Source: Eledone cirrhosa | Taxonomy: Eukaryota | NCBI GenBank assembly: GCA_964016885.1 | Contig: OZ024742.1 | Span: 255,812,001 to 255,876,000 of the forward strand | DNA length: 64,000 bases | Direction: 5' to 3' | Part shown: in pieces, positions 45,017 to 46,520 of the stretch | Layout: each line of letters opens with the position of its first letter | Position numbering within the stretch: position 1 is the stretch's first letter | Translations under genes and position numbers: made by a program | Notes under the pieces: generated by a model | Databases searched by the model: none | Seen by the model: only the letters and a program-made list of their open reading frames with translations | What the model was told of the DNA's origin: nothing

Positions 45017-46520
45017 AGAATTTAGTATATCTACTAACATATGCGTACAGATGTACGCTAATGCCAGCAAATACACAGGTTATGTCATGGTACCTAGGTG
45101 GTTCAATGCAGAAGGATGCAGAACAATAATATAAAAGACGTAAAATAAGAAAATTTTAAAAAATTAAAAAAATTAAATTATTTACTAAAATTTTCACTCC
45201 AACTAATTAGTTTCTGCAATGGGATAAAGACAGTTACGTAATAAACTGTCGAGAATTAATTGCGTCATCAGGGAGTCTATTCTCAGCTAAGTCTCCAGGC
45301 AATGCGCGGACATTGGGGACTCATATAAAATAATAATAATTCAGTAGATGGAACAGCTAGCGGGGACTGGATTCCATGCACTGAAAAGCTCGCTGTCTCT
45401 AGTCCAATGGCAGATTCTAAAGAATCAATCACGTGACACTGAGGCTAGTCGGTAGGAGTGGGATGGTAAGATGAGAGAAGCCTACTAGCACACCAATAAA
45501 TTAGTAGTGGTTTTGGCAGGTTTGCTCCACAAATAAATAATTTGGAGATAAATATAGAGAATTTAGTATATCTACTAACATATGCGTACAGATGTACGCT
45601 AATGCCAGCAAATACACAGGTTATGTCATAGTACCTAGGTGGTTAAATGCAGGAGGATGCAGAACAATAATATAAAAGACGTAAAATAAGAAAATTTTAA
45701 AAAATTAAAAAAATTAACTTACTTACTAAAATTTTCACTCCAACTAATTAGTTTCTGCAATGGGATAAAGACAGTTACGTAATAAACTGTCGAGAATTCA
45801 TTACGTCATCAGGAAGTCTATTCTCAGCTAAGTCTCCAGGCAATGCGCGGACACTGGGGACTCATATAAAAATAATAATAATTCAGTAGATGGAACAGCT
45901 AGCGGGGACTGGATTCCATGCACTGAAAAGCTCGCTGTCTCTGGTCAAATGGCAGATTCTAAAGAATCAATCACGTGACACTGAGGCTAGTCGGTAGGAG
46001 TGGGATGGTAAGATGATAGAAGCCTACTAGCACACCAATAAATTAGTAGTGGTTTTGGCAGGTTTGCTCAACAAATAAGTAATTTGGAGATAAATATAGA
46101 GAATTTAGTATATCTACTAACATATGCGTACAGATGTACGCTAATGCCATCAAATACACAGGTTATGTCATAGTACCTAGGTGGTTCAATGCAGGAGGAT
46201 GCAGAACAATAATATAAAAGACGTAAAATAAGAAAATTTTAAAAAATTTAAAAAATTAACTTACTTACTAAAATTTTCACTCCAGTCCCCGCTAGCTGTT
46301 CCATCTACTGAATTATTATTATTTTTATATGAGTCCCCAGTGTCCGCGCATTGCCTGGAGACTTAGCTGAGAATAGACTCCCTGATGACGCAATGAATTC
46401 TCGACAGTTTATTACGTAACTGTCTTTATCCCATTGCAGAAACTAATTAGTTGGAGTAAAAATTTTAGTAAGTAAGTTAATATTTTAAAAAAATTTTAAA
46501 ATTTTCTTATTACGTCTTTT
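45017..46520. mobile_element. 541/542-bp HHR-bearing monomer: 2.33 tandem copies (minus) plus inverted 236-bp copy, in (TA)n
   Basis: AGAATTTAGTATATCTAC at 45017, 45558, 46100; inversion at 46284; HHRs at 45196-45276(-), 45737-45817(-), 46377-46457(+). Confidence 0.92.
46377..46457 (+). ncRNA. Type I hammerhead ribozyme
   Basis: actcc CTGATGA cgcaat..[gacagtt/aactgtc hairpin]..attgca GAAA ctaattag TT ggagt. Confidence 0.85.

What the first reader, a model, noticed from the sequence alone, without database searches (positions are those of the whole stretch)
45017..46520. Second HHR array (541 bp) whose inversion breakpoint lies at the predicted self-cleavage site
Seen: on the minus strand the HHR predicts cleavage at GAAACTAATTAGTT|GGAGTG. 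The tandem run begins at GGAGTG (position 46283) and switches to an inverted copy through a 4-nt microhomology (TCCA, 46281-46284). The insert is two full monomers plus ~184 nt. Inference: the DNA records an RNA whose 5' end was made by ribozyme cleavage and which was copied as a multimer (partial cleavage, template jumping or rolling-circle RT). That would be genomic evidence of in vivo activity. The TT site and the C.A pair at the base of stem II could be CpG decay from TC|G and C-G.
Basis: partly seen in the sequence, partly recalled or inferred. Interest (0 to 1): 0.9.

Follow-up and report, generated by a model that had tools for sequence, protein, structure and literature searches.

The report
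Ribozyme cut recorded in retrozyme insertions
This is one copy of an abundant, protein-free jumping repeat with a hammerhead-ribozyme motif, and across the genome its copies break off about four times more often than expected just after the predicted cut, which likely means that part of the RNA had cut itself before a borrowed Penelope-type enzyme probably copied it into both sides of a DNA break.

Summary
In detail: two full 541/542-nt units plus 184 nt, joined through TCCA (46281-46284) to an inverted arm, at the predicted GUU|G cut. It is one copy of a large non-coding family. Arms end at two fixed 3' points (+70, +184) in (TA)n, one of each per insertion: the Penelope 'tail' footprint, which this scan noted before in other families of this genome. 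But the pile is broad (peak +7), most passes (80-90%) read through uncut, and a second hammerhead family showed no step at its cut. CpG decay is refuted: U17 and the C.A pair are the family state, and the fold covaries. Best reading: a non-autonomous Penelope-type retrozyme, copied from both target strands off partly self-cleaved multimeric RNA. Cleavage itself, the mobilising enzyme and expression are untested.

The parts
44955..45017 (.). (TA)n target tract, left side; shared with a neighbouring two-armed element
45017..46283 (-). Arm A: 2 full units + 184 nt; RNA sense is the minus strand; 3' end at family site A (+184), 5' end at the predicted cut (+1)
45017..45200 (-). Partial unit +1..+184, including the ~114-nt 'tail' (+70..+184) that the inverted arm lacks
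45025..45076 (-). Conserved hairpin +125..+176 (16 + 6 bp) just 5' of start site A; repeated in each unit
   Evidence: z -5.6; compensatory and G.U-preserving changes
45196..45276 (-). Type I hammerhead motif 1, copied uncut (predicted cut 45201|45200)
45201..45741 (-). Full unit, 541 nt, no ORF
45737..45817 (-). Type I hammerhead motif 2, copied uncut (predicted cut 45742|45741); carries two private stem changes
45742..46283 (-). Full unit, 542 nt, beginning at the GGAGTG of the predicted 3' cleavage product
46270..46277 (.). AAAATTTT palindrome at +7..+14, the commonest head-to-head joining site in other copies (not used in this copy)
46281..46284 (.). Inversion junction, TCCA overlap, containing the predicted cut 46284|46283
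46281..46520 (+). Arm B: inverted copy, family positions -171..+70; 3' end at family site B
46377..46457 (+). Type I hammerhead motif 3, in arm B, copied uncut (predicted cut 46452|46453): stem I ACUCC/GGAGU, CUGAUGA, C.A, long stem II, GAAA, palindromic stem III, GUU
46520..46655 (.). (TA)n target tract, right side

Best explanation
This insertion is one copy of a protein-free 541-nt hammerhead repeat (a retrozyme) that was likely copied into a (TA)n tract by a borrowed Penelope-type reverse transcriptase, probably once from each strand of the cut target, and its long arm stops where the ribozyme is predicted to have cut the RNA. Steps: (1, inferred) tandem copies give multimeric RNA; (2, inferred from junctions) the slow GUU hammerhead cuts only some sites, leaving RNAs with a 5' end at +1 and uncut sites inside; (3, shown as a pattern, enzyme inferred) one target strand primes at +184, the other at +70, on RNA of the same haplotype; (4, inferred) each cDNA runs until it falls off at random or runs off the cut end, roughly one pass in five to ten; (5, shown as a pattern) the two cDNA 3' ends are joined head to head, bluntly at +1 or through the nearest microhomology, mostly the AAAATTTT at +7..+14. 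In this copy arm A read through two uncut sites, stopped at the third and joined arm B through TCC(A).
For: Family: 1856 first-look candidates, 40 scored; 521 exact hits of one 20-mer. Of 226 arms in 128 non-redundant loci, 117 end at ~+184, 91 at ~+70, 18 elsewhere; 73 inverted pairs are A+B and none A+A or B+B; 111 of 117 and 85 of 91 ends abut TA/TC microsatellite. 5' ends: 31 at -2..+15 vs 7.2 expected, 4 vs 6.4 at -19..-3, scan-corrected p<=5e-4. Genome-wide exact patterns: 22 insertions with a junction at +1 vs 6 at -4, p=0.004; in 6 of the 22 the partner arm also ends at -1..+2, including a blunt CACTCC|GGAGTG join. Head-to-head joins: 84 places through the 8-bp palindrome just inside the cut, 5 through the same 8-mer at +44, 6 through the 12-bp palindrome just outside; corrected for match rates about 160, 39 and 8 (my arithmetic). 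Stronger predicted helices elsewhere show no pile (16-bp helix 0 vs 3.5; stem II 8 vs 6.4 and 6 vs 6.1). Stops also occur at later encounters (arm A 14 of 73, 5 of 16, 1 of 2; arm B 7 of 66, 3 of 23), so templates are longer than one unit yet have an end. G directly before +1 in only 2 of 23 hits, no sign of a copied cap. Arms A and B share family variants at 0.76 vs 0.14 between loci. Core 244 of 246 conserved in older copies while stem II changes in compensatory pairs.
Against: The pile is broad: +3 has 18 junctions against 22 at +1 (about 26 vs 42 after correcting for prefix acceptance, my arithmetic) and the mode is +7, the base of stem I, where a stalled enzyme would also stop. A second peak at +33..+49 (19 vs 8.7) shows that A/T palindromes alone attract junctions. 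A second hammerhead family showed no step at its predicted cut: 116 vs 104 hits, 20 of 30 vs 20 of 30 checked being junctions (no baseline for that family). The motif is non-canonical (C.A at the base of stem II, GUU), has no Rfam hit, and the minimum-energy fold pairs the core away. In the anole element no RNA reads began or ended at the cut and cleavage was not needed in vitro (PMC11167929). No autonomous partner sharing sequence was found.
Confidence: 0.68

Rival explanations
1. The RNA is not cut; reverse transcriptase stalls on entering the folded hammerhead (stem I, +5/+6), and the adjacent AAAATTTT palindrome fixes the join.
For: Mode of 5' ends at +7/+8; +3 nearly as frequent as +1; mild excess of arm B ends inside the ribozyme (-30..-16); no step in family 2; non-canonical core.
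Against: Stem I has low predicted pairing (0.36) while helices at 0.94-1.0 show no pile; counts rise from +3 to +1 after correction and fall at -4; blunt +1/+1 joins without homology; both arms stop in the zone together more often than independent stalls predict (5 of 60 pairs, Fisher p=0.03).
Confidence: 0.15
2. The template is a monomeric circle copied round and round; ends at +1 come from circles reopened by the ribozyme or from linear monomers.
For: Internal cut sites are copied precisely; 122 of 138 locus-sites that carry a minor marker are uniform across units; animal retrozymes make circles (PMC7229834); earlier scan notes favour this for a 310-nt family.
Against: Closed circles have no end, linear monomers can only stop at the first encounter, yet stops are at least as frequent at the second. 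Mixed common markers inside insertions 16 vs 5 expected from new mutation, with linked switches between units in L008 and L018 (recurrent mutation at such sites may inflate this). Most arms are short (median 279 and 487 nt; 5 of 176 exceed two units). A reopened circle still needs cleavage in vivo, so this rival shares the main claim.
Confidence: 0.1
3. +1 is a transcription start of an internal promoter that happens to coincide with the ribozyme site.
For: T|G fits a pyrimidine-purine start (recalled); pLTRs carry promoters (PMC3846280, PMC11167929).
Against: Needs a coincidence to the nucleotide; G before +1 in only 2 of 23 hits, whereas copied caps are expected to leave a G (recalled from LINE-1).
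Confidence: 0.05
4. Inverted arms arise by self-priming on an antisense template or by fold-back of one cDNA at palindromes (hypothesis of PMC3846280).
For: Palindromes at many head-to-head joins.
Against: Many arms cover stretches the partner lacks, and solo B arms exist; G.U-preserving variants mark the ribozyme strand as the structured one; both fixed 3' ends lie on that strand.
Confidence: 0.02

Closest known systems
Animal non-LTR retrozymes (Cervera and de la Pena 2020, PMC7229834; Li, Clavereau and Pollet 2026, bioRxiv 10.64898/2026.07.22.740005)
   Same: Protein-free tandem units with a type I hammerhead and palindromic stem III, low GC, dispersed; proposed to be mobilised by Penelope-like elements.
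   Different: Unit of 541 nt (150-450 described); non-canonical core (C.A, GUU, long stem II); two-armed inverted insertions with fixed 3' ends (the word 'inverted' does not occur in PMC7229834); junction pile at the cut; circles and cleavage untested here.
Endonuclease-bearing Penelope-like elements and their pLTRs (PMC8557442, PMC3846280, PMC4209133, PMC11167929)
   Same: Partial tandems, inverted 5'-truncated copy, 'tail' at one end only, two RT start sites downstream of the hammerhead, microsatellite targets, palindromes at inverted junctions, long stem II and short stem I.
   Different: No ORF; tail about 114 nt instead of 30-40; strict pairing of one start site per arm; in the anole element no RNA ends were seen at the cut and cleavage was dispensable in vitro.
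R2 retrotransposon HDV-like ribozyme (Eickbush et al. 2013, PMC3774820)
   Same: Position of ribozyme cleavage is reflected in genomic 5' junctions, joined through chance microhomology.
   Different: Other ribozyme class and element class; R2 cleavage was shown in vitro and defines full-length ends, here it marks a minority of ends.

Membership tests
Animal non-LTR retrozyme | Tandem units each with a type I hammerhead | tested here: met
Animal non-LTR retrozyme | No protein-coding frame, no LTR/PBS/PPT layout | tested here: met
   three-frame translation has no long frame; no element ORF attached in 140 loci by one probe
Animal non-LTR retrozyme | Unit size 150-450 nt | tested here: not met
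   541/542 nt; the range is descriptive (PMC7229834), not a mechanism
Animal non-LTR retrozyme | Self-cleavage of the RNA | not testable with these tools
   only indirect junction evidence
Animal non-LTR retrozyme | Expression as linear and circular monomers | not testable with these tools
   no RNA data were available to lay
Type I hammerhead | Core CUGANGA, GAAA, UH with stems I-III | tested here: met
   core 244 of 246, GAAA 148 of 157, U16/U17 97 of 102 in older copies; stems I and II paired 0.90-1.0 with compensatory changes
Type I hammerhead | Watson-Crick pair closing stem II next to the core | tested here: not met
   C.A in 169 of 173, G-C follows; other families here show U.U; U.U is reported in natural hammerheads (PMC3088659, passage)
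Type I hammerhead | Match to an Rfam hammerhead model | tested here: not met
Penelope-type insertion footprint | Partial tandem plus inverted 5'-truncated copy | tested here: met
   73 A+B inverted pairs in 128 loci
Penelope-type insertion footprint | Two fixed 3' ends giving a tail at one end | tested here: met
   208 of 226 arms end at ~+70 or ~+184
Penelope-type insertion footprint | AT-rich or microsatellite target | tested here: met
   196 of 208 ends
Penelope-type insertion footprint | Target-site duplication | tested here: inconclusive
   cannot be read inside (TA)n
Autonomous Penelope-like element | RT plus GIY-YIG ORF between pLTRs | tested here: not met
   no ORF in the unit; the one young ORF family examined shares no sequence with it

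The most novel reading that the evidence does not exclude
The junctions of this family are a fossil record of hammerhead self-cleavage in the germ line and of the whole Penelope-type insertion reaction: a dimeric enzyme primes both target strands at two dedicated sites on one partly cleaved RNA, and the ribozyme-made 5'-OH end is the stop and joining point. It would be the first genomic evidence that cleaved RNA is a real transposition template for Penelope-type elements, and a non-canonical C.A/GUU hammerhead would be kept slow on purpose so that multimers survive.
Probability: 0.45. Interest if true: 0.8.

Novelty: new member of a known kind. Interest (0 to 1): 0.6.

Why it matters
[quoted passage not shown] A step in insertion junctions at the predicted cut gives a DNA-only readout of cleavage in the germ line that can be applied to every hammerhead family in assembled genomes. 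The strict one-arm-per-start-site layout also turns the known 'tail at one end, inverted copy at the other' into a testable two-strand priming model, and it argues that at least part of the templates are linear cut multimers and not circles. I found no paper reporting such a junction pile for Penelope elements or retrozymes (searches; the library lacks most subscription papers).

Tried and rejected
Rfam: no hammerhead model matches. Sequencing runs: no RNA holder listed. Contigs of three runs of one sample laid on the junction: fragments only, no listed piece bridges this copy's junction, a few joints equal to head-to-head joins of other copies; not used as support. CpG-decay idea rejected. 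Sloppy template jumping rejected as the source of tandems (1 gap in 206 units at +1). Search for the autonomous partner: one Penelope-like protein fragment of the window against 140 loci gave 3 unrelated neighbours; the young 784-codon family has no hammerhead core and no similarity in the stretch held for 30 loci; Pfam gave no family for that fragment, so its Penelope label rests on motifs recalled by me. Replication in the window's first hammerhead family gave no step. The first 30 loci were biased to long arms and were kept out of the main test unless a pattern search also found them. Earlier-findings look-ups by sequence, by words and near the window returned nothing.

Full report
Observation. 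Counting from the first G of GGAGTG as +1 on the minus strand, the insert is arm A (45017-46283: +1 through two full units of 542 and 541 nt to +184) and an inverted arm B (46281-~46520: -171 to +70). The four bases TCCA fit both arms and contain the predicted GUU|G cut. Both outer ends run into (TA)n. Three complete hammerhead motifs inside the insert were copied through their own cut sites. Rfam does not score the motif and the minimum-energy fold pairs the core away.

Family and architecture. The unit has 1856 first-look candidates in the 3.0-Gb genome, of which 40 were scored; one 20-mer occurs 521 times. I collected 140 loci, dropped 12 duplicates and mapped 226 arms in 128 loci (one further duplicate was dropped from then on). 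117 arms end at about +184, 91 at about +70, 18 elsewhere; 196 of the 208 fixed ends abut TA or TC microsatellite. All 73 inverted pairs between fixed-end arms are one A plus one B. Arms of one insertion share family variants at 0.76 against 0.14 between loci. This is the layout described for Penelope-like elements: partial tandem, inverted truncated copy, tail at one end (PMC8557442, passages; PMC3846280, passages), and the tail has been traced to two RT start sites with both target strands extended (PMC11167929, parts 1-2 of 4 read). A 22-bp hairpin just 5' of site A folds at z -5.6 and keeps its pairs through compensatory and G.U changes. Earlier notes of this scan describe the same two-armed layout for 310-, 445-, 467- and 595-nt families of this genome; I did not test those families.

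The ribozyme motif and the CpG idea. T at -1 is in 203 of 203 units and A at -15 in 196 of 197; CpGs next to them are intact. Older copies (under 90% identity) agree: 29 of 37 have the exact segment and none of the 37 has C at -1 or G at -15. In these older copies the core is 244 of 246 conserved while stem II is only 75% identical yet 97-100% paired, with C-G/U-A and U-A/G-C swaps. Other hammerhead families in the fetched loci have U.U or C.A at the same place and GUA, GUU or CUU sites. So the C.A pair and GUU are the selected family state and not decay. Long stem II, short stem I, an extra base after A9 and a palindromic stem III match Penelope-type hammerheads, which cleave poorly in vitro (PMC4209133, parts 1-2 of 4 read); the extra A before GAAA is not described in what I read there.

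Are breakpoints tied to the cut? In the pattern-sampled arms (167 5' ends), 31 fall at -2..+15 against 7.2 expected from exposure; this is the best 17-nt window in the unit and none of 2000 simulations reached it; -19..-3 has 4 against 6.4, +16..+32 has 8 against 8.0, and +33..+49 has a second peak of 19 against 8.7. Other A/T-rich windows and stronger helices show no pile. Genome-wide exact patterns: 23 hits (22 insertions, all junctions, 3 already in the sample) at +1; 8 hits (6 junctions, 2 internal deletions) at -4; 22 hits (18 junctions after dropping 2 substitutions, 1 deletion, 1 duplicate) at +3 with a more permissive prefix. In 6 of the 22 the partner arm also ends at -1..+2. The clearest control uses palindromes, the natural annealing sites for two identical cDNA ends: 84 places are joined through AAAATTTT at +7..+14 (15 of 15 checked belong to the family), 5 through the same 8-mer at +44..+51, and 6 through the 12-bp palindrome at -12..-1. 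Half-pattern match rates of 0.72, 0.36 and 0.86 turn these into roughly 160, 39 and 8. cDNAs that are joined near this site therefore mostly ended just inside +1.

Limits. Per encounter only 14 of 73 and 5 of 16 A arms and 7 of 66 and 3 of 23 B arms stop in the zone: most passes read through. The pile is broad with its mode at +7, so stalling at stem I is not excluded. The first hammerhead family of the window showed no step: 116 hits at +1/-1 and 104 at -3/-4, with 20 of 30 checked loci being junctions in each set; without a baseline this is inconclusive, but it is not a replication. No partner ORF was found.

Linear or circular template. Stops at second and later encounters, the window copy being a third, need a template longer than one unit that still has an end. 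Common markers are mixed within an insertion 16 times against 5 expected from new mutation, with linked switches between units in two loci; 122 other locus-sites with the minor marker are uniform. This favours partly cleaved multimers, at least for part of the insertions, over one uniform circle, but a circle reopened by its ribozyme would leave the same ends. Internal sites are copied precisely, which does not favour sloppy jumping.

Comparison. It works like a non-autonomous Penelope element and fits the animal non-LTR retrozymes (PMC7229834, passages and part 2 of 6; bioRxiv 10.64898/2026.07.22.740005, parts 1 and 3 of 5), apart from its larger unit and untested cleavage and circles. Cleavage products are already known in vivo for other retrozymes (PMC7229834); what seems new is evidence that cut RNA serves as insertion template. 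The nearest precedent is R2, where the cleavage site correlates with genomic 5' junctions (PMC3774820, abstract only). For the anole Penelope element the opposite was reported: no reads at the cut, and cleavage dispensable in vitro (PMC11167929). PMC3088659 was seen in passages only. Supplements were not opened; figure S2 of PMC11167929 and the supplements of the bioRxiv preprint may bear on end distributions.

Verdict. The junction step is good indirect evidence of cleavage in vivo (about 0.7-0.8 including the reopened-circle variant), not proof. Interest 0.6.

Noticed in passing
window 44034-44957: Neighbouring element with the same two-armed build: 539-nt unit plus 82 nt, inverted 302-nt arm, ends 87 nt apart, both in (TA)n, sharing a TA tract with the finding; no hammerhead core found by pattern.
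   Followed up: partly
window 25088-28534 and 57926-57950: First hammerhead family: U.U at the base of stem II, palindromic stem III, predicted cut GUA|C or GUU|C; no step in junction counts at its cut.
   Followed up: partly
window 28456-31929: Truncated copy, with inverted arm, of a young Penelope-like family; many genomic copies have open frames of 784 codons; ends in (TA)n; no hammerhead core in the stretch downstream of the ORF. A possible mobilising enzyme, no sequence link.
   Followed up: partly
window 55078-55178: Inverted pair of a third hammerhead family (U.U mismatch, CUU site) joined head to head upstream of the cores.
   Followed up: no
window 61718-61782: Fourth hammerhead motif (U.U mismatch, palindromic stem III, GUU site) ending about 35 nt downstream in (TA)n; the same end flanks L107.
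   Followed up: no
G000:C12:17003549-17462942: One insertion of the finding's family repeated eight times at about 60-95 kb spacing, i.e. inside a large tandem duplication.
   Followed up: no
many loci, 3' end of arm A: Arm A often continues as (TC)n before (TA)n, extending the unit's own TCTC at +183..+186; arm B joins (TA)n directly. Possibly slippage at priming.
   Followed up: no
L142 (= L082) 1193-1679: Arm A starting exactly at +1 and a short arm B are separated by about 280 nt of foreign sequence, a possible capture at the joint.
   Followed up: no
window 9961-12438: Broken LINE-type endonuclease/reverse transcriptase frames (label from recalled motifs).
   Followed up: no
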